Source: Paecilomyces variotii (lineage: Eukaryota). Taken from it: a stretch of 64,000 nt of DNA. Positions 15,383 to 42,884 of this stretch are shown here, in pieces (the stretch's first letter is position 1; each line of letters begins with the position of its first letter). The position numbers were made by a program, and so were the translations under genes. The stretch lies in assembly GCA_004022145.1 (NCBI GenBank), contig RCNU01000014.1; one strand, 5' to 3'. The notes beneath the pieces were generated by a model. The model was not told where the DNA came from, did no database searches, and was given only the letters and a program-made list of their open reading frames with translations.

Positions 15383-15501
15383 CGCCCGAAGCGGGGCTCG
15401 AACCCGCGGCCTTAGGATTTACCCTGTAGAACCCGCTAATCAGGATTTCCTGATGAGGTTAGCGTAAAAGTCCCACGCTCTACCGACTGAGCTATCCGGG
15501 C
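15383..15501 (-). tRNA. tRNA-Lys(TTT) with about 46-nt intron
   Basis: Reverse complement GCCCGGATAGCTCAGTCGGTAGAGCGTGGGACTTTTA-[intron]-ATCCTAAGGCCGCGGGTTCGAGCCCCGCTTCGGGCG shows acceptor stem, D arm, TTT anticodon and GGTTCGA T-loop. A downstream T-run is the likely terminator. Confidence 0.95.
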
Positions 15502-16287: not shown

Positions 16288-17770
16288 ATGCCGTTGACTA
16301 CGACTATTACCAGGGCGTTACTACTCTTGGGGGCTCATGCCGCCGCTCAAGACACCACTATGGGGAAGAAAGTGTTCGCTCATTATATGGTAGAATGCAT
16401 ACCTTTTCTTGGATCTCTCAATCATGGGTGAGGGTAATAACTGACCGTAAGAAAACCGAACCAGGTTGGCAGTATGACCTCGAGCGAAGCAGTGACCGAT
16501 GTCAACGACGCTAGTAATGCTGGAATTGATGGCTTTGCGCTGAATGTCATGAGCACAGATCCTTGGTCCACCTCTGCCATAGATGATCTATTCGTCGCTG
16601 CAAATTCGTCCTCCGGATTCAAACTGTTTTTCTCCTTCGACATGACCCACTTCAACGATCCGTCACAGTTCCTCCCCTTGATCGGTGAATATCATACTAA
16701 CTCTGCCTATTATCTCCAAAATGGTAAGCCGTTTGTAAGTACTTACGACGGAGGAACTCTCACGTTCGGTAACACTACCCCCGGTGACGGATGGGAGGCT
16801 GCGTTCAGACGACCTCTCGAGGGTATGGGAATAAGTCCCTTCTTTGTTCCTGATTTTGACGACTGGAGTGGCTATCCGAACGGGTTCTTTAGCGCGTTCC
16901 CAGTCGTGGATGGAGCTTTCAGCTGGGAAACCGCCTGGCCTCAGGTGAGTGAGGGAAAGGCAAATGTCAGTGATGCGGTGGATGCAACATTGCTGCATGA
17001 CGCTCACTCCGCGAGTAAAGTCTACATGATGCGTCAGTTCTCTCTTACCCTGAAGTACCAAATATCATCGGGACTTATCTGACCGGGAAATGCATTCAGC
17101 CCTGTCCACGTTCCAGTTCAAGTATCTCGGTCCGGGGCAACAGTGGTATCGAAGAGGAGAACTGAACTTCGCACAGCGCATGGGCCAGATTCTGCAGCTC
17201 CAGCCTGACTTTGTGGAAGTAGTCACATGGAATGATGCTGGAGAGAGCCACTATGTCGGGGATTTCTGGCCCGAACAGATCGCTGGGAGCGACATTGGAG
17301 CATATGCCAATGGATTTGACCACAAGGGCTGGCTCCAGGTACTCGGCCCTTTCATCACGGCATACAAAGCCGGTGTGACGGATACATCGAGCATATTACC
17401 GCCATCTGGAGCAAATGCTGTTGGAGCAATCTGGTATCGTACGCTTCTGACGTCTGCGAGCTGCTCCTCTACGATATCTGGTTCCCAGAATGCCGACGAC
17501 GCTATGAACTTTGCTATTATTCTTCCAGCAGATACCTCTGGAGTCACGATTAACGTATACAGCAACAACAATCAAATCGGCTCTTACTCCGGTCTCCCCG
17601 GCCTGAACGCCCAGTCTGTCCCCGGTCTGCAGGCTGGCGGGAACCAGAGAGCTGAGGTCGTCGACGCAAGTGGCACAACTATTGCATCTGCTGTAGGGAC
17701 AAAGGACGTTCAGCCGCAATCGACCGGCTCCGTATGCAACTACAACTACGAAGTCGTGGGACTTTCCTGA
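16288..17770 (+). CDS. Secreted GH71 alpha-1,3-glucanase (mutanase), 3 exons
   Basis: Signal peptide MPLTTTITRALLLLGAHAAA followed by KKVFAHYM|VG; GIDGFALN; FKLFFSFDM; KPFVSTYDG; VEVVTWNDAGESHY. Confidence 0.92.
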
Positions 17771-18031
17771 GCCGTCAAATCAGCCATCTGAAGTCGAATA
17801 TACATATATATATTCCGCTATATACTTGCATTTTTTCCTGCATCAGACTAACTCAAGTCATAGTGCATTTTTGAGTATAGAAGAAGTTTTTCCTGCGAGG
17901 CTGTCTTCCTGTTTTACCTTAGGTTCTATATGCAATAAACTATATGACATATCTATGCTTGGTTCTCTTGATACTCGCAGATCTAATCTGTCTGATATCT
18001 GCATATATTCCTGTTTTTCTATTCTATCAGC

Positions 18032-18094
18032 ACACACGACCATTGGGTGTGGAAAACAGGGCTTCCCGTCCGTTCAGCCGTACTTAAGCCACAC
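18032..18094 (+). rRNA. 5S rRNA gene, 5' half (outer), interrupted after AAGCCACAC
   Basis: ACACACGACCATTGGGTGTGGAAAACAGGGCTTCCCGTCCGTTCAGCCGTACTTAAGCCACAC matches the first 63 nt of Eurotiomycete 5S. TATA-like CATATATT at about -30. Similarity to 5S stops abruptly. Confidence 0.92.
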
Positions 18095-18116
18095 ATTCCA
18101 CACAGTTAATTGTTGA

Positions 18117-18655
18117 GAAGCCTTCTTTGTATCTAAGGCTTCTGATGGAGTAATGGTGAGAAGTCTCTTAGCATGGGTGCAGGTGAGATGGGGTGGCCCC
18201 CAGAGGCCTGTTTTCAGGACGAGTTTTACAGATGCTTTTGGAGCGTACTCGGACCAGGTATTGGCGTTTCAAGTGAATGGTCTGGTACTGGCAAGGGACG
18301 AATCGACTTCCATCTCCAGGAACCAGGATGGGGATTTGAATTGCTAAAGGACGGAGATCGAATAGGACAACACTGCGACCGATTCGATCCGAATGGGACC
18401 TATTATCCGTGGATACAGAACGACAAGCTCAAAGATTGGCTGATACTCGATTGCAGACACACTTACCCTCGTACGATTTGTAAGATACTTCCTTCTCATT
18501 ATGATTCCATTGACGATCAATGTTAATGCTCTGCTCCAGATCCAAAGCAGCAAAAGTTGTGGAGAGTTGTGTTCACAGATAATTACTCTCGCGTTCAGAT
18601 TCTTAATTGCAAGAATGAGAAGGTTGTTCCGGAGTTTCAGCTAGTAAATGTATAG
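18117..18655 (+). pseudogene. 5'-truncated fragment of a Crinkler-associated PD-(D/E)xK nuclease-like gene (2 exons)
   Basis: PPEACFQDEFYR...SSEW...GRIDF...WGFELLKDGDRI..HCDRF...YYPW...DWLILDCR, then intron 18480-18539 and KLWRVVFTDNY. An in-frame stop lies at 18114-18116 and the N-terminal domains are missing. Confidence 0.6.
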
Positions 18656-19418
18656 GTTATTGGCGTTTTCTTTCTTCGGTTACTTCCTCATAAACTTATC
18701 AAGTACTCTTAACTCTGCGCAACTGTTATACTAAAATTCTCGCTTTCCGTATGTCAAAATGTGTACTTTCCTCTTGTGCATGTAAGAGTGCGTCCCGACG
18801 ATCGCACGCGAGATGCAAGTGTTGAGGGCATATTTACTCTTATCTCAACCCCTCTATGTAATATCTGAGATCTGAGAACTAGACCAGCATTCCAGTGTAG
18901 TGATATTACCATACATGGATTATATGGATTATATGGCGCCGTCACACGCACTGCTATCTTAGTATGGCGTAGAGTTAACTGTAACCTCTACTTAGCTCGC
19001 CCGCATGGCACCCACCACCTTCTGGCGGCATTCAATCTCAACGGAGCTTCTCTGTGGTGTTTCTCGGGTGGCACGACGAGGCTCTGAGTTAGGGTGAGTG
19101 CGCGAACGACGGGTTACTTAGACGCATTTATCCCAGTCGCTTAACGATGTCGGGCCCGAAACACATCGTCAGCTCGTCAGCTCAGCTCAGCAGCTCCAAT
19201 TCCCCATTTGAATTCGATCTTTAATTTTAAAATACCTATTAGCTCATCTGTTTAGCCGAGCAGTTCCTTTAAAGTATAAAACTGGATATATATGCTGGCT
19301 TGGACCATCGAGGAGGGTCTTCGAAGTTACTTTTCAAACGTGCTCTCGATTGGAGCCGACCGCATCGTAGGTAATGGCAAATACCATGTTCATTATTCGA
19401 AGTGAGCTGCGTAGTTGA

Positions 19419-21066
19419 TCAACCCCCAAGTTTGAGAAACGGATGATCCATGAGTTCACGAGCTGTTCCCCTCTTCTCCGGGACCCAGTTGAGCATTTGT
19501 CGAACAAAAGATAAAAATGCCTCTTGATCTTTCTGTTCGAGGAATGAAGTAGTATCCTCTAAGCTTCGGGACGGGATCAATCCAGTATAGCGGAATTCAT
19601 CTAAAATAGTCAGTACATCAGGTATTTACATATGAAATGGTTGGCCAACTTACCTTCTGCATCAAAAAAAGGGCCGTCAAAGAATTCCCGAGCACTGTTG
19701 CAGAGTTTGCCAGTGTCGTTTGCAACAGGCTGGGGCCACTTTTGCTCTGACATAGTCTTTGATTTCGCAAGCAATACCTTGGGGGGCGGGCCAAGTAGAG
19801 CAATCATTTCTGCGAGGTGTGACTTTGCGTCGTATGTGCCGTCTGCATTATGTACCTGTTGGAACAACTCCTTGCTCCCAAGGATATTCCACAACTTGCC
19901 GAACAGGCTTGTTAGTATCAAGGCCAAGCCAGCGGTTGTAACCAATAGGGAAATAGACAGTCGCAGGGGACTGACCAACACACCAAAATTCCATATATCT
20001 GCCTTGAAATCCCAACCACAGCCAAGGATTACCTCTGGAGCGCGGTAGGGGTCTGGTTGGATAGGATAAACACCAAGTTGCTTTCCTACCATCCCATCTC
20101 GAGTATGTGGCTTGTCGAGCCTTGTTGCGAGCCCGAAATCGGCTATTTTGGGAATCATATTCTTGATATCTCGCCCGTCAAGAGCGCCGAAATCATTATG
20201 GCAGCGGTAGATAGTTCGACCACTCTTGCTATCAATCTTGTATTGCATTTGTTGTTGTTGTATTATGAAGTTGGTAAGGACGTTTTCGTTTTCAAAGCTC
20301 ATGAGGATGTTATCTAGCTTCAGATCTGAAAGGGAGATAAGGTATTTATATTTGAGGCAGAGTCAAATTGCGAAAAGCACTTACCGCTGTGAACAACTTT
20401 GCATTCTGAGTGAAGATAATCAAGACCAACAAGGCAGAAGTAGATGTAGACCTTCGCAATGGGCAAGGGAATCTTGCGATCAACGAAACGCCTTTGGAAC
20501 ATCCACAGAGGCTCTCTCATCGGTTCGTACACGAGGCACATGTGCTTCCCTTCTGGACCAGTTACTTCGACGTCATCTAGACATGTTCGTAGAATCACGC
20601 GGCCACGGTGCTCTGGATTTTGCTGTTTGATATGGCTTTCAATCTCCTTCTCATGTCGAGCATCATTGGCATTGTTACTGTCGATTATTTTGAGAACCAC
20701 TGTTCGCTCAGATTGCCATTTAAGTCTTAATTGGGTGGACCATGGTCAGTTTCTCTGTAGTTGAATGAAGCATGAAAGCACATATGCGGACGTGGGTAGC
20801 TACCTTGAAATGTCTCGGGCGAGCCATACGGTAGATTGCGATCCCCAGCCGATTTTGACAAGTAGTTGAAACCTCTCTGCCAGTACTTCCCCAGGATTTG
20901 CTGGGTAAAAACTTGCCGAATTGTAGCCTGGACAGAGCTCCTCGTCGACAGGTTCCTGCTGAGGAATTGGAGGCTCAGATGTACGCCGCAATTGCCAGAG
21001 AGACTTTCTGGCAAAGGAATACACAGTACGTCGCGATATCAAGGTCAGCCACCGATGAGGTAACAT
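19419..21066 (-). CDS. SRPK-like (CMGC) serine/threonine protein kinase, multi-exon; element cargo
   Basis: KIGWGSQSTVWLARD; VVHS|DLKLDNIL; IADFGLA; IQPDPYRAPEVILGCGWDFKADIWNFG; MLNWVPEKRGTARELMDHPFL*. Confidence 0.9.
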
Positions 21067-21501
21067 CACTCCATCCGAGCGTTATGGAATGCTATTGGAA
21101 TGCTCTGGGAATGGTTGAGTGCCAGGGAGATTGCAGAAAAGCTGAACTCAAAGTTAGCATTAAAGCTAATCTACAGATTGACAGTGAATTGGGACCCAAA
21201 TGATGATACCCGGTGTGGTTACTCACAAGTCCAGGGGTAAGGATGCAGAACGAAACGGATCTAGAGGTGGTGCGTTGGGGGGACGCCGGACAAAGAAATG
21301 TACTCAACGCCGGAAGGAATGTTATATAGAGGTAAAATAAACTCTATTAAAAGTCCAAAGGCGAAGGAAAGAAAAGAACAAGATGCGACATATTATGCCT
21401 GGACCAATGTTGCACTTGTTATGGGAACATCGGGGGTCGGTCTTGGCCGGCCAAGCTAACCGTATATAGAAATATACCAATCTTACTATGGTGTTCCCTT
21501 C

Positions 21502-21505
<4 letters not shown>

Positions 21506-21535
<30 letters not shown>
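21506..21535 (+). repeat. (AGT)n microsatellite, about 10 units
   Basis: agtagtagtagtagtagtagtagtagtagt. Confidence 0.9.
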
Positions 21536-21536
<1 letters not shown>

Positions 21537-22068
21537 TGGGAGGTACTTAGCCCAGCTTAAGTTGAGCTCCAAACATCCTTGAAAGTGATTTAATTAAGCA
21601 TGCTGTTGAGACTTCAAAACAATCCTCCAACATCAATACTTGATGTTTTGCCGCTGCGACCCAGGCGCGACTACGCACTTGAAGTAAACTGGGAAGGCCC
21701 GGGGAACAGATGCCATGAGAACCACGCATGTCTCCTAAGTATTGTACAAGCAGTCAAGTAGCCGCCCTCTATGATCAATGTTATGGACGCTTCCTCTCGT
21801 GACATCAAATGAGTGCTATATGTGCCCAACTTTTCAGGAGCTGCCTTTGCCCATTGCTGCGCTCTTCACGAAACCCTCTTGTCTTTCAGTTTTGGGTGTC
21901 CCATCTCCTTCTCGAACAAGTAGAGACAATTATAGCGGCTGTGTATTCTTAGCTAATCTATCATCTATTCAAAGCACTGTAGGAGCACCCTTTTCCCTAG
22001 CGCAAAACCCTGAGCAAAATCACCGAATTCCTGTCCATTTCCACGGAGTTCATCTCTACAGGACCCAG

Positions 22069-23655
22069 CTATCCTGCAATCTTATAACCGCGTTCGATGA
22101 CATTATCAGATGCGACAGTGAAACACCAGTCCAGGTAGTGCCCTGACCTCGCTGCATAACGGAAGAATCCGATAACATTTCCGTCGTCATTCCAGATAAC
22201 GGATCCGCAAATGCCGTCCTCCAGGTAGTCAACAGACCCTTGACCCATATATAGCCACCGAGCCTTGACCCATACAAACTTTGGTTCGTAAGGGTCATCG
22301 CTCGGAACGCGTATCCGCGAATGCGGACCGCAAGTGCCTTCCGAGTAACCAAGGAGAGGGCTGTTCATGTAGATTTTCGAGCCGATCTGTGTCTCGTCAG
22401 CCGGGATGAATTCCTTCAACTGGGTAGGTGTTGCTCCGTCAAGTGGACTCTCGAAAGTTTCATTGACAAAATGGACCTTGTCGTGCAGTTTGACGAGGGC
22501 GACGTCCGTATGCGAAATTTCCATGATAATCTGTCCGACTTCTTTTCCCGTGCTGCACGGATGGAAGACTTTATCGCCATTTGGGAAACCATGGGAGGCG
22601 ACAGTCATATACCTCTCGCCTAGACAATCTTCAACCAGGACGCCGGAGGTGGTACGATACTCAACGTGAGTGGTATCATGTCTTGCAGAGCTCAACATGA
22701 CACCAGGACGCAATATATCATACTCGCTATCGTCGACGACATCGCCAGTCGGGTCACGGATCCGGCGGGCCGGAAATTCGTTCAGCTTTGGACGTCCCAT
22801 CTCCTTCTCGAACAGGTAGAAACAATTACAGCGTCCTATGGCAGAAGGAACTTCAGCCAGATCGGTGTCCTCATTCTCTAGAACAATAACGAAGAAATTG
22901 TTCCAGTACTGAACTTCCGTAATCGAAGTTTCAGATTTTGCGAAAAAGTCAAACACCAGCTCAAATGCATCGTCAATCCTAGTGGGTGGAAGGTTGACAG
23001 CGTTGATTTCAGCGGACACGCGAAGGCGTGATTTGCTCGGGCGTTTTATTGGCGGAATTGGGCCATCATCATTCGGATCAATTGTGAAGTAAGGCTGGAC
23101 ACCGGCAATAGTAACTGGCCAGGGCTTCGGTGGTAAAGTACCGAGCCAAAACACTAAGAAATAGCCATCAAAATTCACCGCTTTTGTGTCTGGAAAGAGG
23201 TGGAGTAGTAGCCCAGAATCCTTGGTAGCGAAGGCTTTACGATTCTGCCGGAGATTGAATGGAAGAATGAGGTGGCGAGACGGGGGAATTTGGATTTCCG
23301 GTAACGACGACTCTGGCGACTCAGGGTGGGCATGCGTCGTCTTAAGCGGAGATCTTTCGTCTAAGACACAATAAGTAGATGATTTAAAAGGTAAATTTGA
23401 TGAAAACTTACTGATCAAAGCTTCGCCTGATGGGAAAAGACGCTTCGATGGCTCGAAGAGGGGCGAGTCACCCAGACGGAGGACCGTCCTCTCTGAAGGG
23501 AAAGCGCCACGAGGAGATAAAATGAAGCTTTTGCTAGGGGACGACAACTCTGACGACGGGGTGACCTTTCTCTTACTACTCCCAGGTGACTTCTCTGATT
23601 TGCACGCGCGGGGGGTGACAATAAGCCCCTCCTCGATATCTGCTGGACCTGTCAT
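22069..23655 (-). CDS. Intronless hypothetical protein with C-terminal chymotrypsin-like peptidase-type domain (Cys in the nucleophile motif); element cargo
   Basis: Long uninterrupted ORF with a Ser/Pro-rich N-terminus. C-terminal TSGVLV...MTVASHG, HTDVAL and DGICGSVIW...VIGF motifs occur in trypsin-fold order. Start codon uncertain (ATG 23655). Confidence 0.7.
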   Translation of the reverse strand: MTGPADIEEGLIVTPRACKSEKSPGSSKRKVTPSSELSSPSKSFILSPRGAFPSERTVLRLGDSPLFEPSKRLFPSGEALISKFSSNLPFKSSTYCVLDERSPLKTTHAHPESPESSLPEIQIPPSRHLILPFNLRQNRKAFATKDSGLLLHLFPDTKAVNFDGYFLVFWLGTLPPKPWPVTIAGVQPYFTIDPNDDGPIPPIKRPSKSRLRVSAEINAVNLPPTRIDDAFELVFDFFAKSETSITEVQYWNNFFVIVLENEDTDLAEVPSAIGRCNCFYLFEKEMGRPKLNEFPARRIRDPTGDVVDDSEYDILRPGVMLSSARHDTTHVEYRTTSGVLVEDCLGERYMTVASHGFPNGDKVFHPCSTGKEVGQIIMEISHTDVALVKLHDKVHFVNETFESPLDGATPTQLKEFIPADETQIGSKIYMNSPLLGYSEGTCGPHSRIRVPSDDPYEPKFVWVKARWLYMGQGSVDYLEDGICGSVIWNDDGNVIGFFRYAARSGHYLDWCFTVASDNVIERGYKIAG

Positions 23656-24689
23656 GGCTAGGTATTTTGGAGTCTTGGACAGACGAGGAAACACTGGAGC
23701 CCGAGAGATGAACGGCCACTACCCCGACTTTCCGTGACGTGAATAAGAAGTCCTCCTCTTGGTATTATCTGAGCTTAGTTTTGAAAGATGAGTGAGCTTG
23801 GCCTTGAGAGATGAGTGAGCTTGGTTTTGAGAGATAAAGGTTAACTTGGCGGTAAAAGCGTCAGAGGTGAAGGCGCGACCTGGGGCAGGCAGAAGGACGT
23901 CACGTTGACCAGGCTGCCGAAATTGAGACTCATGGGATGCTAACGACATGCTCCCTGGTAATATAAGCTCTACCACCGTGGTAATTGCACTATCTCTCAT
24001 CACTAAATTTCGTCTATCCATTCCTCAACCGTCGTAGTATCTCGACAGGTTAGTAGACCAAAGCCTTTCGCGGCGATGAATATCTCAGATAACACATTAA
24101 TAATATCTATAGGTTGGACTGTTACTACTTGTCCTAGTACCTCAATAGGGTCATTGTATTAATTAGTCTTCTGGTCAGTTTCAGGATCGATATTGCCAAC
24201 TTCGTTTAGCTACCCGGTTAACATACTTACCCCAGCGATAAATATTAAGGACAATGCTGTGAATTCGGACTATAATATAAACAGAGGTAGCACATAACAT
24301 TATCCAATACTTTAAGGAATATCCTGCCTAAAGCTTATCAACAATAATAGGTCTTTATATTTTTAGATGCCCAAGACAGCTAACTAATAATAGGCTGTTA
24401 ATCAGCAATTATTCTCGTCTAACTAATAATAACAGCGTGAAAGTTCAGCCAATAATGATCTTCGCTGGCTCACAAATCCTTGACGCTGTTCACACTCTGT
24501 CTGTGCTCGGTAAACCAATAGATAAGTGGGCTATAATAATAAGAGCGACACGCCGACTCCTCGGCGGCAGCCACAAATCTAGTTCTGGCTAATAATCGCT
24601 CGTATATAAGCGCCTACTTAAGTAATCAAGTGGTTATCACAATCAAACTGAATTGTAGGGTTACGAAGACCAGGATATGACCTGATGCA

Positions 24690-25050
24690 GATAATGCACC
24701 CGATTTATAATTGGACCCAAGAAGCTTGTGGTCTGAAACGAGCCCATACTTACTCGTCCTGACGCCTATTATTCTGATAAAGGCGGATTCGACCGAGAAC
24801 GACGGAATCTGTAAGTTAGACTCACAGGGCTCTTTCAAGTTCTCCACTCACCCAAAATGTCTGATTATCACACACTCAGAGAGGCCATCTAATAGAAATC
24901 ATAATCTGAGCAGCAAGAATTAATGTATTTGGCTAAGCGCAAGCTGAGATATAATATCTCTTGCATGGATTTCTGATAGGAAAGAATAATGCTACATCTG
25001 CTTACTAGCGATCTTTTTAGCTTATGAAACTTAATCCAAGGCCCTGTGAT
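24690..25050 (+). pseudogene. Degenerate, RIP-damaged coding remnant of unknown family
   Basis: EPILTRPDAYYSDKGGFDRERRN, a GTAAGT...CAG intron, then RGHLIEIII*AARINVFG*AQAEI*YLLHGF with stops explainable as C-to-T changes. TpA-rich surroundings. Confidence 0.3.
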
Positions 25051-25761
25051 GGCATCGGCTTTATCCAAATTATTATAGGAGTTTCACACCTAAGCGCTGA
25101 ACTAAGCGGATAATATCGAAATAGCAACGTACATTTGCTGTTGACTCTCTAGCTGAACACCTAACGGGGGGGCAACTCAACTCCCAAGTCATAGCTGCCA
25201 ATAGAACTTGGGTGATGTTCCAATATGCCTGTGATGCCCCATCTCCCCTAAGCGCTGTACTGTAGTCTAGTCGCCCTCTGTTCCAAAAGCTATATTGGTT
25301 ATCTCTTCACAGCCAGTCAAGTTATGCGCAATAATAAAGCGTGAAACGGGCCATCTTGACAATCCCTGAATACCTCTCAATAGCTTGGATCAAAATGCAG
25401 GAGTTTGGGAGCTACAAGGGTGGCACTCCAAAGTGTGCATACATTGCACACCTAAACAACACGCCCAGGTAGCTGCTATCATTGGCAGAATGGTCCCCTA
25501 CATGCTAAAGGATAGTCCTGGCCGAAAAGCAAGCTACTGCTCGTCAAGTAGTATAAATATATGCCATCCACTTCGTTGAAAAAGAAGGGGACAGTCGTCG
25601 CTTCATCTTCTGAAAAATTACGTGCACGCCATTTGCATAGAAGGTTGGTTTCTCTCAGTAAAAATCATGTTTTTAATATTAATTTCCCTAGGTCCGTTCT
25701 CATTTCTTGGTTGCAGACACATTGAAAACGAGCCTCAAACGAACTACTCAATTCTTCAAAC

Positions 25762-26208
25762 ATGAACAAGACCTATCAACTTTCCGTTTCGATATTTGGT
25801 CCGGGGAGCTCCGAGCGCGCCCACTGGGGATTCGTAATCCATCAACCACCGAATCTCTATGGAGATCTCCTCCACGTTAGAGTGATCGATGTTCCTGCCA
25901 ACCGGTTTATATTCGAGAATCGATCCGGACATGGCCTACGCTCCCAGAACGCGTGGGGATTGTGCAAGGTTGCGCTACTCGATAATGCACAGCGGATTAA
26001 GGTGACTTCGATACTCTCGAGCGAGAAGCCACCAAATGGTGGAACAAAAGACTGCCAAGACTGGGTAGTAGATGCGCTCGTTTCATTGGAAGTAGAAGAA
26101 TTGGTCCCTGATGGTACAACACAAACCTGGAAATCGAGGGTGGGAAAGCAATCAGTGGCCATCAAGGGAGAGGTGGGTAGGGACTGGGAATCTTTGAATG
26201 ACAAATAG
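25762..26208 (+). CDS. Small hypothetical protein with HWG...H...CQDWV motif (permuted papain/NlpC-P60-like); element cargo
   Basis: 148-aa intact ORF with good start context (AAAC ATG); AHWGFVI, LLHVR, KDCQDWVVDALVSL. Confidence 0.75.
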   Translation: MNKTYQLSVSIFGPGSSERAHWGFVIHQPPNLYGDLLHVRVIDVPANRFIFENRSGHGLRSQNAWGLCKVALLDNAQRIKVTSILSSEKPPNGGTKDCQDWVVDALVSLEVEELVPDGTTQTWKSRVGKQSVAIKGEVGRDWESLNDK

Positions 26209-26211
26209 ATA

Positions 26212-27081
26212 TTATACAGGAGAGTACACTCTCATCGACCGATCAATCTCATCCCACAATTTGTACTCTTCCGGGAAAGCGGGAATAAAACAGGGGATTA
26301 TTTCAATCCAACTTTCTTCCATAGCAATCCGCTTAGCGGCAAAGTATTCCCTCTCTGGAAGACTGTACCCAGCCTCGCCCCAGTCTACTATTCCACTGAC
26401 CAGCCCATTCTGAATAATAATGTTATCTGTATGCAGGTCGCCGTGAGTCATAACTCCTATATCAGCAGAGCGCTGATTGTCATAAGATAGAATCTTCTCC
26501 TTCAGTTCTTCCTCTGTTTGACCCCAGACTCCATCTGGCCTTGATAAACGAAGTGCTTCAATAACACCAAGTTTATACTCTTCTAGCGATTGAAAAGGTC
26601 CATATCGCTTTAGAGAAGTATAGTCCCAAGGATGTTTGAAGATGATATCCTCACAAGGCCCACCATCCACCGAGCCTAGGAAAGGAGCGCCCAGTTTGCG
26701 CCATTCTAGAACGTAGGAGTTAAGTTGGCGTGCAATCGATTGGCGCTCTTCGTGCGACATATTATCCCAAGATGAGCCAAGTGGTTCGCCCTCCACCTTG
26801 CTCATCAGAATGAAACCTATATCCCCAATCGTATATGCGCTGAATACTTTAGGCACCGGGATGTTTGTTTTCGTAGCCAGAAGGATTAGTGCCTCCGCTT
26901 CACTCATTTTCACCGTCCAGCCAACTTTCAAAATCGTAGATTGGGATATCTGCCAGATAGCATTCCCGCTCATTCGATTTGGGGCGAGATCTATTGCTGA
27001 TTCGAGTTGATCGACTGGAACAATGAAGTTATCCTGTCCACGCAGTGAACTTGTGAAGACAACATTTGATGGCTCGGCCAT
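26212..27081 (-). CDS. APH-family (aminoglycoside phosphotransferase-like) kinase; element cargo
   Basis: 289-aa intronless ORF; EAEAL...TNIPVPKV, FILMSKVEG, MTHGDLHTDNIII, IVDWGEAGYSLPEREY. Confidence 0.9.
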   Translation of the reverse strand: MAEPSNVVFTSSLRGQDNFIVPVDQLESAIDLAPNRMSGNAIWQISQSTILKVGWTVKMSEAEALILLATKTNIPVPKVFSAYTIGDIGFILMSKVEGEPLGSSWDNMSHEERQSIARQLNSYVLEWRKLGAPFLGSVDGGPCEDIIFKHPWDYTSLKRYGPFQSLEEYKLGVIEALRLSRPDGVWGQTEEELKEKILSYDNQRSADIGVMTHGDLHTDNIIIQNGLVSGIVDWGEAGYSLPEREYFAAKRIAMEESWIEIIPCFIPAFPEEYKLWDEIDRSMRVYSPV

Positions 27082-27384
27082 AATCTCCTTTAGATATCCA
27101 AGGATTGATCGACCAGGATTCTAGAATTCTGCTGTTAGATAGGAGCTTTGTGAAGGGAAATACAGTTTCTACCTTATTGAAATAGGCCAACACACTTTCC
27201 GGGGCGCGAGACATGATTGCAATTGCCAACTGTATCAGTTGAAATTATTGAGAGCAAAGTTGACTGGGGCCGATCATGGTTGCAGATGACCCCGCCAGGC
27301 TCGCCTCGTTTTTAGCGTCGCTTGACGTGGCGGAAGAGGCAAAGTGACCTGTGTACCTACTCTTTCTCTTTATCATTTTTTGAT

Positions 27385-27619
27385 ATAGTCGTAATGTGGC
27401 AATGATAGTGCTAGCAAGCCCGAGATTGTCGGTTCTACCGTGTTGCTCGTGAGAATGGGTAAACATGCTCTTAGGTTGGACGATTAAACACTGCTAAGAT
27501 TAGGTATTCCGCGCCCAGATCCTCCGCACATTCAATATTTGCGCAACTGAGTCACAAGCCATTCTCCAAATTTGAGTCTTGTCCTTGGAGATCTTAACCC
27601 TCGGGCAAATTCAAAATGA
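27385..27619 (+). repeat. Diverged direct copy of the sequence downstream of the 5S 3' half (partner at 31865-32124)
   Basis: 22-nt exact match ATAGTCGTAATGTGGCAATGAT, plus AGATTGTCGGT..TACCGTGTTGCT and TGAGTCA.AAGCCA.TCTCCAAAT.TGAGTCTT..CCTTGGAG...CTCGGGC.AATTCAAA.TGA. Confidence 0.85.
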
Positions 27620-27666
27620 AAATAACATCTAGTTAGTATATGAGGCCAATTGAAGTAATTTCTAGC

Positions 27667-27729
27667 ACATACGACTATAGGGTGTGGAAAACAGGGCTTC
27701 CCGTCCGCTCAGCCGTACTTAAGCCATAT
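27667..27729 (+). pseudogene. Second 5S rRNA 5' half (inner), RIP-mutated, broken at the same position
   Basis: ACATACGACTATAGGGTGTGGAAAACAGGGCTTCCCGTCCGCTCAGCCGTACTTAAGCCATAT, with TATA at about -30 and CpA-to-TpA changes relative to 5S. Confidence 0.9.
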
Positions 27730-27826
27730 ATTCCGCACAGTTAATTGTTGAGACGCCCTTTATGTCTTTAAAGTTTCTGAAGTGACGATAAGAAGTCTCC
27801 TAGGGTAAGTGCAGGTGAGATGGGTG
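27730..27826 (+). repeat. Diverged copy of the element left end (partner at 18095-18195)
   Basis: ATTCC.CACAGTTAATTGTTGAGA.GCC...AGAAGTCTC.TAG...GTGCAGGTGAGATGGG is shared by both junctions. Confidence 0.88.
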
Positions 27827-28035
27827 AGTGCTCGATAACTCTCACCTCTGGAGGTGAGAGACTCACGCGATAGGGCAAGACACTCACCCAACAGGGCAAG
27901 AGGGCTCACTTAGAGCGGCCGAGCTCGCCTTATCGGTGGAACAACCCCCATAATAGATGTATTAAATAGGCCAGGCACCCTTCTAACTCTCTTATCCTCA
28001 TATAACTAATATAGACAGAATCCCCCGATACTTCC
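27827..28035 (+). mobile_element. Possible solo-LTR-like insertion remnant
   Basis: Starts where left-end homology stops and precedes a 5'-truncated LysM gene. It has internal short repeats (AGGGCAAGA x2, CTCAC x4), a CTCTCACCTC/GAGGTGAGAG hairpin and a TATA-like box followed by a pyrimidine tract. No clean TG...CA ends. Confidence 0.25.
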
Positions 28036-28071
28036 AATATTGCACGTGACTTCCACATAATTATAGCTACA

Positions 28072-29658
28072 GGTTGAGCTTCCAACATTCCGCTCCTGGA
28101 ATCCTAACATCAATTCCGCTTGCTCTAACCTAGGCGCTTTGGAAGGACAATACATATGTCTCAGGTCAGTAAATCCTGTATTTATATGAGCTCTACTGAC
28201 GCAATAAAGCCCTCCTGGAATGACAGAAATCCCAGATTCTTTTCCATTGATGCCTGCAAGTGTCGCGGCGTAAGTACTACATACGACCTAAAGAGGATTC
28301 GAGGACTAATTGCTTACAGGCCTGTCCCAATAGATGCTGTTACGACCTCCAATACGAAATGTGGACATTGGTATAAGGTTTAGAGTGGTGATACCTGTGA
28401 CAGCATTACAAATGAGTTCGATATATTACTCACGGATTTCGAGTTTCTCAACCCGCAGTTAGATATGAATTGCACAGACCTATGGTTGGGAAACAGTTAT
28501 GTAAGTCGTCGGGGAATATTGCAAGATGCTTCAAGATATAAATCTAATATATCTATTTTAGTGTGTCCAACCAGTCGGCAACATTAAAACATATTCTGGG
28601 TATTCTGTGTCATCCTCAGGCTACAGTGCACTCCCGACTACAATTAACCTCAACGCTACACTAACAGCGAACCGATCAACAACGTAAGATCACTCTTCTT
28701 CTTCTTCTTCTTCTTCTCTCTCTCTCTCTCTCTCTTTCTCTTTTTTTCCCTTTTTTTTTCTTTTTTGAGAGGTTGGCTAATGATGTATGTTCAATTTATT
28801 AACCAAGCAGTCATTTTTTCCCCACCCTTACCCCTGTTACTACGAGTACATTCGTCTATAACTCAACAGCCGTCTCCTTTGCTCATAACTATACGCTCTG
28901 TTCACAAGCTTTGAAATATTACAATATCACCAACGGCGATATCCCAGAGAGTGTGGTCCAAGACTCTCAGTGGTACTCAGAATACCAGAGGGTCTGTTTA
29001 CTCAATCTGAGTCAACCGTTGCCCACTATACCTTTCAATATAAGTATTACTACCCCTCCATCAAATGGTGCAGGTCCGACTACTACAGTCGTAATAAGTG
29101 CTTCTTCTGCAATGTCGTCAACATCCACGGCATCAGGTACTACAGGTATCAGAATTTCCCCGGATGGCACGTGCGGAGAGTCCTACGGATACACCTGTAA
29201 AGGGTCATCTTTCGGCGACTGTTGTAGTATTTACGGTTATTGGTATAGTATTCCCATCTTCACCACGTTCTATAGTCAAGATTCAGATTCTAATTACCAA
29301 TATACAGTGGTTCTGGTAGTGACTACTGCGGTTCTAATTGTGATCCGGAGTATGGGGACTGCAGTTCGTATAGTTCATCATCTACGGCTTCGGCTGGTGC
29401 TTCTGCGACATTGCCATCAGCTTCAGCTACATCAACTGCAGCAATTACAGTTTCTCCGGATGGTACATGCGCAGAGACTTATGGATATACTTGCAAAGGG
29501 TCAACCTTCGGGGACTGTTGTAGCATATATGGTTATTGGTATTTTTTCCCATCCCCGCTTCCTCTTCGTGTACCATGCGATACTCATGTATTCACAGCGG
29601 TTCCACCAGCGACTATTGTGGCTCAAATTGTGACATCAACTATGGCAATTGTACTTAG
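28072..29658 (+). pseudogene. 5'-truncated LysM + 2x hevein/CBM18 chitin-binding protein pseudogene
   Basis: LysM-like TFRSWNPNINSACSNL..GQYICL and CGHWYKV*SGDTCDSIT...FEFLNPQLDMNCTDLWLGNSY|CV, with TAG at 28381-28383 (likely from CAG). Two SPDGTC..YGYTCKGS.FGDCCSIYGY|CG repeats. Confidence 0.8.
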
Positions 29659-30261
29659 ACCGCGCATTATCCGAACAGGTCAGCGTGATCTCACGAAGCT
29701 ACTGTAGTTGTGATAACCTATGATGAGTGAAAGGACAACTGGTCCTTGATTACTGTCGTCGTCCATTGTTGTGCTTGATCCGACGCATTCTATTTGTGAA
29801 ATACCAAAGCAGAAGAGAAAAAGGGTTAGCACGAGTCCCTATAGATGAATTCTACTTTCGTGTACATAAATAATTACTCGATTCGATCTTCAAAGCAAGG
29901 TTGAAGATAGCAAGTAATAATCAGAATTTTATTAAATTTACGAGTTTTTTAACTAAGAGGCTACAGAACAATAATTAATTAACCACTGTAACAACATTAC
30001 TGTTAAGATGGCAATACGCCTGCAAAGCAAAAAATGATAGAGAATATGCGCTCTTTTCCCTTTAACTCTAAATTACTAGTACGGTACTGCGGAATAACCA
30101 CTAATTAATAGCGGGCGAGTGGTGGCAAATGTCTCCACAGTTGTACCGCAGAAGATGAAAAAAATGTAAGGCAGATTCCATGATACCAACAAAACAGCGA
30201 CTCATAAAGACCTTAGATCCCTCCAATCTCCATACTAAGTCATATTTCCAGACACCCGAGG

Positions 30262-31524
30262 ATGGCGACTTCAAATCATACAAGGCCAATTCGATATTGG
30301 CCGGGAGGAATCCCTGCCTCCGTTCAGTATCACCCGACGAAACAACTTACTGAGCAAGAGAAAGATAATGGGAATTGGGATTTTCCTACTCCTGAGGAGA
30401 CCATTGAAGAATCAAAAGGTTGGCTGTTATTTGTCGAGGTATGTGTCATGTTTATGTTTGGAAAATAAAAGAAATCCGAATTCTTACTTAATCCTCCATT
30501 TCATATAGGAACAATGGCTGTCTCGCGAGGCAGCAGGTAGCTCAGATGAAGACGAAGAGTACGAACTCCGTCAAAGACGTTCTTTGGTCGAGAAGTGGGC
30601 CTCAGCAGATCAGTCATTTCGTGATGTTCGTAATATCTGTCTTATCTTGCACAGGAATCCAGCACTAATTGACAGTCTTTTCATAACCGCGCGCACCCCA
30701 GGAAATCAGCGATAGATTATCCATCTTCAGCTTTAGAACGCCTTGAAGACACGCGGCAGGATTATAGCTCTTGGGTCTGCATAAATCCTGTAGATACGCC
30801 ACTCAAGCGTGCGCGCTTTGTCAAGTTCTTGATCCTTTGTTACCGACTTGATGGACAGAATTGGCATCCAGAACCAAACGGCGAAATCCTTCCCACAATG
30901 GTGAAACCAAACCCTGCTACATTCCCGGATGCTAACGACTTCACTATTTCCGACTTCCCTATGTGGGCGGTTGTCGAAACGGCTGACTTCAAAGCTATAT
31001 CAATGTCTGTTACGGGGCATCTTATCCTCGAAACCAATTACGGTCCATATTTCATCATCGATCAAGCTTCTCTTGAGACAGGCCGATTCTTCGTTGTAGA
31101 ATATAAATCAACAGGCCATATCGACCATATCATCCCACGACGACCGTACTTTTTAACGGATCTTGTGAATTATTCCGAGCTTGGATTCACAGTCGAGCGT
31201 ATGGAGGAAGAAAATATCGGTGGACGCGAACAATATCAGAATCAGCCGTAAGTGCAATCCTACTTTCGAAAACGCAGTATTTGGCGCTTACGACTTTCAC
31301 TCAGGATGGATATGGATCTACCAATTCTAGACATTATTCAAAAAGCGAAAGATAATAATCAAATGACGAAGTTCTTTTACACTGAGCGTGATCAGTGGGA
31401 GAAGGATATTGAGCTATATGCGCCAGGTTACTTGGCCATGGAGGCGGAAGGGAGGGCTTCAGAGTATGACATTCGGAATCTAAGAGACACACGCGAAGCG
31501 AGTAGGGCACGTTGTGGAGGATGA
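30262..31524 (+). CDS. Hypothetical multi-exon protein; last cargo gene of the element
   Basis: MATSNHTRPIRYWPGGIP...GWLLFVE, with GT-AG introns linking ORFs 30262, 30829 and 31252. Protein-like composition; family not recognised. Confidence 0.65.
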
Positions 31525-31745
31525 AATATACCTTTTCTTCGGATAGCAATTAGCTACTCGATTCATACCATGGGGAACATACTATAAACACTAAAGTTTT
31601 GGCCCCTAAGGTCGCGCGACTATGTGTCGCGTCTTACCCGCTATCGCTCGCGCACTTACTCTAACTTACCCCAGTTGCGCGACCGTAAAGCGGCTCTTGC
31701 CCGTTACTTACCCGGGCGGCACCCAGGGCCCTATTGACTGCAGAG

Positions 31746-31810
31746 AAGCCACACGCCGGCAGGTTAGTAGTTGGGTGGGTGACTACTAGCGAATCCCTGC
31801 TGTTGTATGT
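31746..31810 (+). rRNA. 5S rRNA gene, 3' half, followed by Pol III poly-T terminator
   Basis: AAGCCACACGCCGGCAGGTTAGTAGTTGGGTGGGTGACTACTAGCGAATCCCTGCTGTTGTATGT then a T run. Joined to either 5' half it gives a 119-nt 5S gene. Confidence 0.93.
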
Positions 31811-32509
31811 TTTTTTATTTTTTTTTATTTTGTATTCTTTTTCTCCTTTTCTTTCTTTATATAGATAGTCGTAATGTGGCAATGATGCTGCTAGATTGTC
31901 GGTGTTACCGTGTTGCTGGCGTTTCATAACCAACAGCGGAGTCCGTTTCAGCGTCCCGAACGTTGCCACAGGTAGTTCTCACACTGGCTTAATGAGAAGG
32001 TTTAATCGAAATGCTGCAAAATTTACTCCGCCCAAATTCGCACTTTGACATTTGCGTATTGAGTCAGAAGCCAGTCTCCAAATCTGAGTCTTTCCCTTGG
32101 AGTCTCGGGCGAATTCAAAGTGACACTGCCTGTCCAACCTTGGAAAAGTCTTCCCTGAAAGTTGTTGCCACACGTCGACGATCTTCCGTCGTTTATATCT
32201 GGCATAGCTGCATCGGTGGTTTCGCGCATGGATGGTGATGCAGATAGTATTTGCTGGTGTATTGATGCTTTCACCCGTGGATCTCAACAGCAGTATGCAT
32301 GGACCCGAGACTCAAAAGTCCTAATGAAAGGTGAATGAAGAGGAGGATGATCAGGTCTTATCAAGGGAGGGGTGGAGTCCCTCCGAATGGCTCTCGCATG
32401 GTAATGTCGTATAATTCATGGGACGGAAACACCTAAAGGCTGTGGCAGTAGGCGCCTGATTGTATAAATAATGAATTAGAACTAGGATCATCACAAGCGC
32501 ACCGTGATC

Positions 32510-33088
32510 TTACCTTGAGAGTAGACCCCAAAGGAGATTGATAACGACGAATATGAGCCATATAATCAATACTGCATACGGGTTAGAAGAGGCGCCAAAA
32601 TTCAAGAAAAAGCTCCATCGTGAGCAAAGATACAAACCTTCAGCACCCCATATTTCGCAATGTCTCAAAACCGTCTTCCAGCGTTTGGTCTTCAGCCAGG
32701 TTGGGACGAGGTCCATTTGACACGTCTTGCCTCCGATGACGAGACAGCCTCCTTTTGTTCTTCGACATTCGAGATGCCTTCTTCTTCTCTCCATGATCCT
32801 TCTGATCCTCCAGTTACAGAAGGACTCGTCGGTTCTGAACGAACATTTCTCCATTGGACATTCGAGCTTCAGTTCGAAGCGTTCCACGAGCCAGTCCACT
32901 TTCAAATGGACGCCGGTATATACGAGATAATAGAAATGGCGAGATGTGTGCTTCAATGCTAGCGCATCTGGGTATGTGAGGTAAGATGCAATGTGTAGAT
33001 GAAGTTCCGTGGGTAGATCCATCAGTCTCAATGGTCGTTCTTGAGCATGTGCTCGTGGCACGGTATCTCTGCCCTGAATATCTTCCAT
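32510..33088 (-). CDS. F-box domain protein (start uncertain; one intron near the 3' end; C-terminal hydrophobic segment)
   Basis: LMDLPTELHLHIASYLTYPDALALKHTSRHFY F-box; Cys-rich CPMEKCSFRTDESFCN...HLEC...GGC region. Confidence 0.8.
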   Translation of the reverse strand: MEDIQGRDTVPRAHAQERPLRLMDLPTELHLHIASYLTYPDALALKHTSRHFYYLVYTGVHLKVDWLVERFELKLECPMEKCSFRTDESFCNWRIRRIMERRRRHLECRRTKGGCLVIGGKTCQMDLVPTWLKTKRWKTVLRHCEIWGAEGLYLCSRWSFFLNFGASSNPYAVLIIWLIFVVINLLWGLLSR

Positions 33089-33856
33089 GACTGCATCAAA
33101 TGGATTATACACGGGAAATTGAATAGAACTGCTCCCTGGGACAGAGACCAGGATATAAGACAACAATATAGAGCCAGCAACAGTAGAGCAAATGGCAACA
33201 GAGCAAACAACAGACAGACGAGTCAAGATGGAATATGGCTGCCTAGCTCCACCGGCATGATTGGCTCTCCATTTAGAATGAAGATGACACTTGGAATACA
33301 GCAAAATGAACAAAGTGCTTCTCAGAAATAGAGAAGCCTGAAGGATCAGATCTTCCGTTGGATTATTCGGACGTGCAGTACTTGACGGCAGGATAGACCG
33401 GTGTTAAAGAACGGGAGTATCTTTCCAGTAGGTACAGGTGAGATGATCAAGCAATAGTAAACCCTGCAGATTGTAAAATGCAGAGCTTGAGCCACCCAAC
33501 TGAAGTAGAAACATTAGAAATACAAGTCCCCATGGATAAAAAACAGAGCATTATCTGGGCGACTGTTCAATATGCGAGCCCCTCCATGCTGAGACATCCG
33601 AATGCGGCGTTGTTTGTTCTCGGGCAGAAAGCACGGGCCACCCATCACATGTTCCATTCGTTCTCTCCGCCTTCAGTTTTGGGCTATTTTGATGGACTTC
33701 TCTTAAAGCTATCAGCAACAACTTGCTTACTTGCACCCATCTGCCGCAAAACAGCCCACTGCAAGAATCCTTATACCTAAATTACGATATTGCAAGGACA
33801 AGCATAATTTTCAGGACCCCTCAAAGAACAAGAAAAGAAATTTAAAAATTTCAACA

Positions 33857-42840: not shown

Positions 42841-42884
<44 letters not shown>

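What the first reader, a model, noticed from the sequence alone, without database searches (positions are those of the whole stretch)
18032..31810. 5S rRNA gene split by a 13.65-kb gene-carrying insertion: a captain-less Starship-like element
Seen: a 5S 5' half (18032-18094) and a 5S 3' half with terminator (31746-31810) rejoin into a 119-nt gene and share the 9-bp direct repeat AAGCCACAC. An 8-bp imperfect inverted repeat sits asymmetrically at the ends (CAGTTAAT, 8 nt in from the left; ATTGACTG, 5 nt in from the right). Everything between is accessory-type cargo, while both sides return to ordinary genes. Known: some Starship lineages in Eurotiales, mobilised by DUF3435 tyrosine recombinases, target dispersed 5S rDNA and have short direct repeats and asymmetric inverted repeats. 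Inference: this is a small derelict or non-autonomous member. Both termini look retained, so a captain elsewhere might mobilise it in trans, and captain-based searches would miss it.
Basis: partly seen in the sequence, partly recalled or inferred. Interest (0 to 1): 0.9.

Follow-up and report, generated by a model that had tools for sequence, protein, structure and literature searches.

The report
Two relic insertions in 5S genes
A stretch of a Paecilomyces variotii chromosome holds the remains of at least two gene-carrying mobile-element insertions that hit two neighbouring 5S rRNA genes at the same nucleotide; they have no recombinase gene left and seem fixed in the species, so this is an old relic of a known kind of fungal element, not an active one.

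Summary
The 5S 5' half (18032-18094), the 3' half with its T-run (31746-31810) and the 9-bp AAGCCACAC overlap are real. But the interval is not one element. A second 5S 5' half lies inside it (27667-27729). It is cut at the same nucleotide and followed by the same ~98-bp left end. Just upstream of it is a copy of the sequence that follows the 3' half.

My reading: two tandem 5S genes were each hit by one site-specific element family. Unit 2 (27730-31745, 4.0 kb) keeps both junctions. Unit 1 (18095-~27360, 9.3 kb) keeps only the left one.

No DUF3435 or any other recombinase or transposase domain appears in 98 ORFs or in six read-through frames. The inverted 8-mer is near chance.

Contigs of three other studies bridge the left junction. 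No contig showed an empty site here. One cargo gene occurs in many P. variotii strains.

Verdict: a fixed, captain-less relic, probably Starship-derived, and a new member of a known kind. Family membership is not shown. Interest is moderate to low.

The parts
18032..18094 (+). 5S rRNA gene 5' half, copy 1 (63 nt); its last 9 nt (18086-18094) are the direct repeat AAGCCACAC
   Evidence: Rfam RF00001, 21.3 bits, model positions 1 to ~66; sequence read
18095..18192 (+). Left-end module L (~98 nt), shared with 27730-27824; holds the 8-mer CAGTTAAT at 18103-18110
   Evidence: Self-BLAST 18029-18192 vs 27664-27824, 83.5% over 164 nt. Alignment. 18 substitutions over 95 aligned nt, 14 of them transitions
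18173..18649 (+). 5'-truncated gene fragment: the last ~140 codons, up to the natural C-terminus, of a multi-copy Eurotiomycete family whose longer members carry an N-terminal P-loop/STAND-like NTPase. It has one ~60-nt intron-like gap containing a stop
   Evidence: 16 homologues. All 16 map by tblastn only inside 18116-18649. A family HMM scores 223 bits over HMM positions 222-360. Pfam nSTAND3 hits are weak, below cut-off, in 5 of 10 members scanned
19613..20745 (-). Protein kinase gene or fragments (cargo of unit 1)
   Evidence: Pfam Pkinase, E 2.9e-08 and 9.4e-04, on two adjacent ORFs; 3 ORFs hit it
22072..23718 (-). 549-codon ORF with no Pfam family; belongs to an Ascomycota hypothetical-protein family, with only a lead towards trypsin-like/Nal1/S64 peptidases
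   Evidence: 0 PDB sequence matches
25726..26205 (+). DUF6540 gene (cargo of unit 1)
   Evidence: Pfam PF20174, E 2.6e-07
26212..27214 (-). APH-family phosphotransferase gene with two exons, intact
   Evidence: Pfam APH, E 1.6e-15. 100% identity over 100% of the query to named P. variotii proteins. Exon map by tblastn
27360..27625 (+). F': a copy of the sequence that lies just downstream of the 5S 3' half (31837-32125). No 5S 3' half precedes it
   Evidence: Self-BLAST 27360-27447 vs 31837-31917 (73.6%) and 27537-27619 vs 32050-32123 (77.1%). Alignment. A third F-type copy follows a 5S 3' end elsewhere in run X16 (table 5c)
27667..27729 (+). 5S rRNA gene 5' half, copy 2, cut at the same nucleotide; repeat position reads AAGCCATAT
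   Evidence: Rfam RF00001, 23.5 bits; alignment. With the 3' half it gives 119 nt and an unbroken helix I
27730..27824 (+). Left-end module L' of unit 2
27825..31732 (.). Interior of unit 2. Holds a weak LysM-like stretch (28372-28491), a repeated cysteine-rich ORF region (28803-29707) that I read as decayed hevein-like chitin-binding repeats, and a gene at 30898-31512 (+). It has the most RIP-like dinucleotide indices in the window
   Evidence: LysM, E 0.1 only. Internal repeat 29098-29258 / 29397-29553. P0017 at 74.6% by tblastn. RIP indices. The chitin-binding reading is mine and has no Pfam hit
31733..31745 (+). Right end R: ATTGACTG plus 5 nt, abutting the 5S 3' half
   Evidence: Sequence read. 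Contigs of X13 and X16 run from the element to 31771, only 26 nt past the junction
31746..31810 (+). 5S rRNA gene 3' half (starts with the repeat AAGCCACAC), followed by a T-run terminator. The T at 31784 is private to this copy
   Evidence: Rfam, 25.3 bits. At 31784 the multi-copy contigs read C (table 3)
31837..32125 (+). F: 5S downstream flank, the paralogue of F'

Best explanation
The span 18032-31810 is a compound relic. The ancestral locus, between the GH71 gene and the F-box gene, probably held two tandem 5S genes, each followed by an F-type flank (5S_a-F'-5S_b-F). Each 5S gene was hit at the same nucleotide and in the same orientation by an element of one family. That family integrates site-specifically at the AAGCCACAC core of 5S rDNA. 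It is most likely a Starship-type element moved by a tyrosine recombinase, which exchanges strands within a short core shared by element and target and so leaves the core as a direct repeat.

Unit 2 (27730-31745, 4.0 kb) still has both junctions: 5' half no. 2, L'...R, 3' half. Unit 1 (18095 to about 27360, 9.3 kb) has only its left junction. A later deletion removed its right end and the 3' half of 5S_a, up to the start of F'. Both units have lost the recombinase gene, or never carried one. What remains is cargo: a kinase, a 549-codon ORF, DUF6540, APH, a truncated STAND-like gene fragment and decayed LysM/cysteine-rich ORFs. The relic is now inherited vertically in Paecilomyces variotii.

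Shown: the three 5S pieces, the shared left end, the duplicated flank, the absence of a captain, and the presence of the left junction in other samples. Inferred: the tandem ancestral locus, the deletion, the recombinase type and the Starship origin.
For: Exactly three 5S fragments lie in the window, two 5' halves and one 3' half. Both 5' halves end at the same nucleotide and continue into homologous L sequence. The similarity begins only 3 nt before the 5S start, while the upstream flanks are unrelated. That is what two different 5S copies with independent insertions would look like. A segmental duplication would not be expected to stop there.

F' lies upstream of 5' half no. 2, and F lies downstream of the 3' half. 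A third 5S 3' end followed by an F'-like flank exists elsewhere in run X16 (table 5c). F-type sequence is therefore a usual 5S downstream flank.

The 9-bp direct repeat lies within the 6-16 bp reported for 5S-targeting Starships. Strand-specific insertion is typical of them. 23% of curated Starship sites are in 5S rDNA, with at least 5 distinct target sites (PMC11162782, passages). The host is P. variotii, a Eurotiales species and a model host of Starships (PMC10104507).

The cargo is of accessory type. Unit 2 has the most RIP-like indices in the window. L and L' differ mostly by transitions, 14 of 18. Degraded, captain-less 'derelict' Starships are documented (PMC9156397; PMC11623301). The left junction is not an assembly artefact: single contigs span it in X1 (16000-19521), X17 (16090-20877) and X13 (17107-19905).
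Against: No DUF3435 or any recombinase domain was found. No DUF3723, FRE or PLP gene was found. The only NLR-like trace is a C-terminal fragment with weak support. The units (4.0 and 9.3 kb, 13.65 kb together) are below the smallest published Starship, 15,020 bp.

L is seen only twice and R only once, all in this one locus. A local duplication followed by rearrangement is therefore not excluded. Exact-pattern scans of JGI metagenome contigs with a 24-mer of L and a 24-mer of the R/5S junction each found 0 matches. The inverted 8-mer is near chance, and no longer terminal inverted repeat exists.

No contig showed an empty site at this locus in the 4 runs laid. No genome of this or a sister species could be searched. 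Insertion relative to an ancestral state is therefore inferred from the split gene alone. The model needs an extra deletion whose end falls within about 30-50 nt of the 5S_a end.
Confidence: 0.55

Rival explanations
1. One reading: one 13.65-kb captain-less element (L at 18095, R at 31745) inserted into one 5S gene. The inner 5S 5' half, L' and F' would be cargo. For example, a second copy nested into a 5S gene carried by the first, followed by a deletion between the two right junctions.
For: 5' half no. 1 and the 3' half also rejoin to 119 nt with the 9-bp repeat intact. Nesting of Starships is documented (PMC9156397).
Against: It needs as many events as the tandem model: two insertions and one deletion. 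It leaves F' upstream of the inner 5S gene unexplained. 5' half no. 2 forms the unbroken helix I with the 3' half, while no. 1 has a mismatch; this is weak, because mutations may be later than the insertion. The outer element would have to carry a 5S gene as cargo.
Confidence: 0.15
2. A site-specific element that is not a Starship. Candidates are another tyrosine- or serine-recombinase element, or a DDE transposon making 9-bp target duplications (Mutator-like elements do so; recalled, no call) with a strong preference for this 5S site. Here it would be represented only by non-autonomous, gene-carrying derivatives.
For: A 9-bp direct repeat. Small size (4.0 kb for the only unit with both ends). 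No Starship hallmark gene. The two units share only a ~98-bp end, as non-autonomous derivatives of cut-and-paste elements often do.
Against: No terminal inverted repeat beyond a 7-of-8 8-mer. No transposase remnant in six frames. Identical orientation at an identical nucleotide in two targets fits site-specific recombination better than a staggered-cut duplication. My searches for Starship with 5S found no other fungal 5S-targeting cargo carrier, though they were not designed to find one.
Confidence: 0.15
3. No mobile element at all. The locus would be the product of local duplication and illegitimate recombination among dispersed 5S genes and pseudogenes. A single ancient breakage fused a 5S 5' half to foreign DNA, and the junction was later duplicated together with neighbouring sequence.
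For: Truncated 5S pseudogenes are common in filamentous ascomycetes; 18-83% of 5S sequences are pseudogenes (Rooney and Ward 2005, as cited in PMC5555474, passages). L is seen only in this locus. F and F' show that local duplication has occurred. The cargo is fixed.
Against: The L/L' similarity starts at the 5S gene start, not at an arbitrary point. The 3' half begins exactly where the 5' halves end, with a 9-bp overlap. That is the signature of insertion, not of breakage. The interior differs in composition and gene type from the flanks.
Confidence: 0.1

Closest known systems
5S-rDNA-targeting Starships (Enterprise-, Arwing- and Voyager-family elements; Osiris in Aspergillus fumigatus)
   Same: Insertion inside the 5S coding region, which fragments the gene. 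A long direct repeat that matches a 5S motif (9 bp here; 6-16 bp published). Fixed orientation. Accessory-gene cargo. A Eurotiales host. Clusters of 5S genes that become hotspots with several insertions (PMC11162782; PMC12153272).
   Different: No captain here and no auxiliary genes. 4.0 and 9.3 kb against 15-511 kb. Voyager inserts 20 bp from the 5S 5' end (PMC9156397); this site is at nucleotide 63. I could not check whether this site is one of the 5 or more published 5S target sites, because the figure and supplements were not available.
Degraded or 'derelict' Starships (Derelict in Macrophomina phaseolina; derelict ssf regions in Aspergillus, Penicillium and Paecilomyces)
   Same: Cargo persists after loss of the captain and is then inherited vertically. 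This is the proposed end point of the Starship life cycle (PMC9156397; PMC11623301).
   Different: Published derelicts are recognised by Starship-specific cargo (3 or more of DUF3723, FRE, PLP, NLR) or by homology to a known element. This one is recognised only by its 5S target-site signature and a shared end. It would fail the cargo-based criterion.
miniHephaestus, an engineered captain-defective Starship of P. variotii mobilised in trans
   Same: Same host species. It shows that a Starship without a working captain can be excised when the captain is supplied from elsewhere (PMC10104507).
   Different: An artificial construct of the Hephaestus family with target TTAC(N7)A, not 5S. No natural counterpart is shown here, and no matching captain is known.
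3'-truncated 5S rRNA pseudogenes of Aspergillus followed by a conserved block
   Same: A 5S 5' half followed by a short conserved non-5S sequence found more than once.
   Different: Recalled from older literature (Bartnik and co-workers, 1980s). I did not see it in any call, and one search did not retrieve it. Sequence relatedness to L is unknown.

Membership tests
Starship (Pezizomycotina giant cargo-mobilising elements) | [quoted passage not shown] | tested here: not met
   0 of 98 ORFs of 55 aa or more and 0 of 6 frames read through stops hit DUF3435 or any recombinase at E <= 1. 0 of the 10 large ORFs scanned elsewhere in the window hit one either.
Starship (Pezizomycotina giant cargo-mobilising elements) | Direct repeats at both boundaries that reflect the target site | tested here: met
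   AAGCCACAC at 18086-18094 and 31746-31754; AAGCCATAT at 27721-27729.
Starship (Pezizomycotina giant cargo-mobilising elements) | Presence/absence polymorphism with an identifiable empty site in another individual (the criterion used by starfish) | tested here: inconclusive
   No contig showed an empty site at this locus in the 4 runs laid. Contigs break at 5S repeats, so an empty allele could be missed. 20 of 24 listed runs hold both flank and element words. No fungal genomes were searchable.
Starship (Pezizomycotina giant cargo-mobilising elements) | Size in the published range (15,020-511,117 bp) | tested here: not met
   13.65 kb for the whole span; units of 4.0 and about 9.3 kb (range from PMC11162782).
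Starship (Pezizomycotina giant cargo-mobilising elements) | Terminal inverted repeats (only occasionally present) | tested here: inconclusive
   Only a 7-of-8 inverted 8-mer, which occurs in 236 of 5000 random pairs. No longer match between L and the reverse complement of R.
Degraded Starship as defined in PMC9156397 | At least three hits to DUF3723, FRE, PLP or NLR genes without DUF3435 | tested here: not met
   None of these families is among the Pfam hits. One C-terminal fragment of a STAND/NLR-like family at 18173-18649 has only weak support.
5S rRNA gene (Rfam RF00001) | A match to the covariance model at the gathering score (38 bits) | tested here: not met
   The halves score 21.3, 23.5 and 25.3 bits on their own. 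They cover complementary model halves. The rejoined 119-nt sequence could not be given to cmscan. High-depth contigs in public runs confirm the rejoined sequence as this organism's intact 5S.
Mutator-like or other DDE transposon with a 9-bp target duplication | Terminal inverted repeats and a transposase, or homology of the ends to an autonomous copy | tested here: not met
   No terminal inverted repeat. No transposase domain in six frames.

The most novel reading that the evidence does not exclude
Unit 2 (27730-31745) would be a natural 4-kb non-autonomous 'mini-Starship'. The ~98-bp L end shared with unit 1, together with the R end, would be the complete cis-requirement for a 5S-targeting captain encoded elsewhere in Paecilomyces genomes. 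Captain-less derivatives of this family would then have spread from one 5S gene to the next in trans. Such elements would be invisible to captain-based annotation, and they would offer a compact system for defining Starship ends in the species where Starship genetics already works.
Probability: 0.12. Interest if true: 0.7.

Novelty: new member of a known kind. Interest (0 to 1): 0.35.

Why it matters
If the Starship origin holds, this locus shows the end of the Starship life cycle at a 5S target. The captain is gone, the cargo is fixed in the species, and only the split 5S gene and a ~100-bp end betray the origin. Split-5S signatures could then be used to find relics that captain-based tools miss.

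The locus also shows that tandem 5S genes can collect several insertions, as reported for the A. fumigatus chromosome 3 hotspot (PMC12153272). P. variotii is the experimental model for Starship transposition, so a 5S-targeting family there could be tested at the bench.

As it stands the finding adds an example rather than a principle.

Tried and rejected

2. Handing whole frames with stops to Pfam was turned back. I replaced it with 98 ORFs scanned through an alignment and with frames read through with X at the stops.

3. JGI metagenome scans with a 24-mer of L (one degenerate position) and a 24-mer across R/5S gave 0 matches each. This says little, because fungal DNA of this species may simply be absent there.

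4. No cover in runs X1 and X17 over 28769-31753, although both cover the rest; X13 and X16 do cover it. The tool states that a hole proves nothing, so I draw no conclusion. Absence or a diverged haplotype are both possible. A P. formosus (named 'P. variotii No. 5') homologue of the unit-2 gene is only 81% identical.

5. The joint 27720->31746, which skips 4025 nt, is not an empty allele of this locus. Its depth is far above single copy and it has 24-38 nt on the shorter side. It represents intact 5S genes elsewhere.

6. Is L itself coding sequence of the STAND-like family? Two of the 16 tblastn alignments extend to 18116. The family HMM supports homology only from 18173, with the envelope from 18143, and finds nothing at L'. 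I rejected this as unproven.

7. My reading of the C-terminal domain (motif GRIDF...GWGFELL) as a PD-(D/E)xK nuclease has no support. The PDB profile search gave one weak hit (E 0.017). Foldseek gave 0 matches at E <= 0.001, with NLRC4 and RuvB best, on the helical N-terminal part.

8. Subterminal GGGTRAG-type motifs and the 26-of-28 inverted match 19087-19114 / 31640-31666 were not shown to exceed chance.

9. Literature. A full-text search for the 9-mer gave only unrelated papers. A search for the old Aspergillus 5S pseudogene work did not retrieve it. Supplementary tables and figures listing direct repeats of 5S-inserted Starships could not be seen.

10. ARAGORN found no tRNA, although Rfam finds one with a 47-nt intron.

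Full report
OBSERVATION

18032-18094 aligns to the first half of the Rfam 5S model (21.3 bits). 31746-31810 aligns to the second half and is followed by a T-run (25.3 bits). Neither half reaches the gathering score of 38, and no 5S is reported at gathering in the whole window. The two alignments cover complementary parts of the model. They overlap in the 9 nt AAGCCACAC, present at 18086-18094 and 31746-31754.

Joining the halves with one repeat copy removed gives 119 nt. Independent confirmation comes from public runs. High-depth contigs read across the site as ...CCGTACTT followed by AAGCCACACGCCGGC (tables 5 and 7). That is the organism's intact 5S sequence.

The inverted 8-mers are at the stated places but match only 7 of 8. 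A match that good occurs in 236 of 5000 random 20-mer pairs from the window.

The interval holds a second 5S 5' half at 27667-27729 (23.5 bits). It is cut at the same nucleotide and followed by the same sequence as the first. 18029-18192 matches 27664-27824 at 83.5% over 164 nt. The similarity begins 3 nt before the 5S start, and the upstream flanks are unrelated. It ends about 98 nt into the inserted DNA. The two left ends differ by 18 substitutions in 95 aligned nt, 14 of them transitions.

Just upstream of the second 5' half, 27360-27625 (F') resembles 31837-32125 (F). F is the sequence that follows the 5S 3' half. No 3' half precedes F'. A whole-window scan at a permissive threshold finds exactly three 5S pieces. 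In run X16, a contig at single-copy depth joins a 5S 3' end to an F'-like sequence through 25 other letters (table 5c). F-type sequence is therefore a common downstream flank of 5S genes in this genome.

CONTENT

No DUF3435 or any recombinase, transposase or reverse-transcriptase family is hit by the 98 stop-to-stop ORFs of 55 aa or more. None is hit by any of the six frames read through stops at E <= 1.

Unit 1 (18095 to about 27360) carries:
- a 5'-truncated gene fragment at 18173-18649;
- kinase ORFs (19613-20745, minus strand);
- a 549-codon ORF with no family (22072-23718, minus strand). It belongs to an Ascomycota hypothetical family, with only a lead towards trypsin-like peptidases;
- a DUF6540 gene (25726-26205);
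- an intact two-exon APH-family gene (26212-27214, minus strand).

The truncated fragment is the C-terminal ~140 residues of a family that is multi-copy in Eurotiomycetes (16 homologues). All 16 map only to this place. A family HMM scores 223 bits. Longer members have an N-terminal P-loop, with sub-threshold nSTAND3 hits in 5 of 10 scanned. A model of one member (pLDDT 79.5) finds NLRC4 and RuvB as best but non-significant fold matches.

Unit 2 (27730-31745) carries:
- a weak LysM-like stretch (E 0.1);
- a repeated cysteine-rich ORF region that I read as decayed chitin-binding repeats, with no Pfam support;
- a gene at 30898-31512 whose nearest named relative is 81% identical.

Unit 2 has the most RIP-like dinucleotide indices in the window, but they are mild. 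The genes outside the interval are ordinary: GH71, an F-box protein, a zinc-finger protein, sulfotransferases, a TFIID subunit, Tam41, an aminotransferase and a beta-galactosidase.

ORGANISM AND POPULATION

The APH gene product is 100% identical over its full length to named Paecilomyces variotii proteins. Its 90% cluster has 16 members. The 15 listed lie on 40 contigs and carry 12 different P. variotii strain tags.

A 10-kb query, half flank and half unit 1, is held at 0.85-1.00 of its words by 20 of 24 listed runs from 8 studies. These are two isolate runs and grain or food-fermentation metagenomes.

I laid four runs from four studies on 16000-34000. Single contigs bridge the left junction in X1 (16000-19521), X17 (16090-20877) and X13 (17107-19905). 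Overlapping contigs carry on through unit 1, F', the second 5' half and L' in X1 and X17. The junctions are therefore not assembly chimeras, and unit 1 is widespread.

No contig showed an empty site at this locus. Contigs break inside 5S repeats, though, so an empty allele could escape. No fungal genome could be searched, so sister species remain unexamined.

INTERPRETATION

The same end sequence is joined to the same 5S nucleotide, in the same orientation, in two 5S copies with unrelated upstream flanks. This is the signature of a site-specific mobile element. The F'/F arrangement suggests that the targets were two tandem 5S-plus-flank modules.

The most economical history is two insertions and one deletion. 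The deletion removed unit 1's right end and the 3' half of the first 5S gene.

A tyrosine-recombinase mechanism, with strand exchange in a core shared by element and target, fits three features: the long direct repeat, the fixed orientation and the lack of inverted repeats. Starships are the only fungal cargo carriers that my literature searches returned as targeting 5S rDNA. According to PMC11162782 (passages):
- 23% of curated insertion sites are in 5S;
- at least five target sites exist;
- direct repeats are 6-16 bp;
- Enterprise-family elements of Aspergillus are typical.

The same pattern appears in A. fumigatus, where a 5S cluster is a hotspot with several insertions (PMC12153272, passages). 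Captain-less derelicts and a life cycle ending in fixed cargo are described in PMC9156397 and PMC11623301.

MEMBERSHIP AND LIMITS

The defining captain is absent, and so are the auxiliary genes. The size is below the published minimum of 15,020 bp. No captain-bearing relative with these ends was found. The only wider searches possible, two exact-pattern scans of metagenome contigs, returned nothing.

The locus therefore behaves like a relic of a 5S-targeting Starship but cannot be filed as one. A different site-specific element, or local rearrangement without any element, remains possible. Trans-mobilisation is possible in principle: the Hephaestus captain acts in trans on a captain-defective mini-element in this very species (PMC10104507). 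The ends here are diverged and the locus seems fixed, so I think current mobility is unlikely.

VERDICT

The span is a compound, fixed, captain-less relic of at least two insertions into neighbouring 5S genes of P. variotii. It is a new example of a known phenomenon. Confidence in the compound site-specific-insertion reading with a probable Starship origin is 0.55. Interest is 0.35.

The supplementary tables and figures that list direct repeats of 5S-inserted Starships were not available. They could confirm or exclude identity of the target site.

Noticed in passing
window 15383-15501 (-): A tRNA gene with a 47-nt intron scores 57.8 bits in Rfam, but ARAGORN run in its bacterial mode missed it. 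A Pol III gene thus lies 2.5 kb from the 5S remnants.
   Followed up: partly
window 18173-18649 (+): A C-terminal fragment of a multi-copy Eurotiomycete protein family: 3 members in Rasamsonia byssochlamydoides and 2 in Penicillium taxi among the 16 hits. Members have an N-terminal P-loop/STAND-like NTPase and a highly conserved C-terminal domain (invariant GRIDF and WG..L motifs) with no Pfam family. One distant Amanita relative carries a Crinkler N-domain.
   Followed up: partly
window 18404-19004 and about 30169: In isolate run X16 the laid depth rises above single copy. At 18821 a second contig with G>A has depth 2324 of 3825. At 30169 the total depth is 9557 against about 2000. Short parts of both units therefore have further copies elsewhere in that genome.
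   Followed up: no
window 19166-19196: Runs X13 and X17 carry 40 other letters between 19196 and 19166 (table 5c). This is a small structural variant inside unit 1 among strains.
   Followed up: no
window 26212-27214 (-): Strain DTO271G3, labelled P. variotii, has an APH homologue only 83% identical. The record named 'P. variotii No. 5' has a 60%-identical fragment. The cargo gene may predate species splits in the P. variotii complex, or it may exist as diverged haplotypes.
   Followed up: partly
window 28686-28768 and 21497-21544: A T-rich 10-mer array and an AGT microsatellite. Public-run contigs end at both places.
   Followed up: no
window 42842-42884 / 54378-54418: A ~40-nt inverted pair at 88-90% identity, with a related 25-mer at 46128-46152. 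It looks low in complexity.
   Followed up: no
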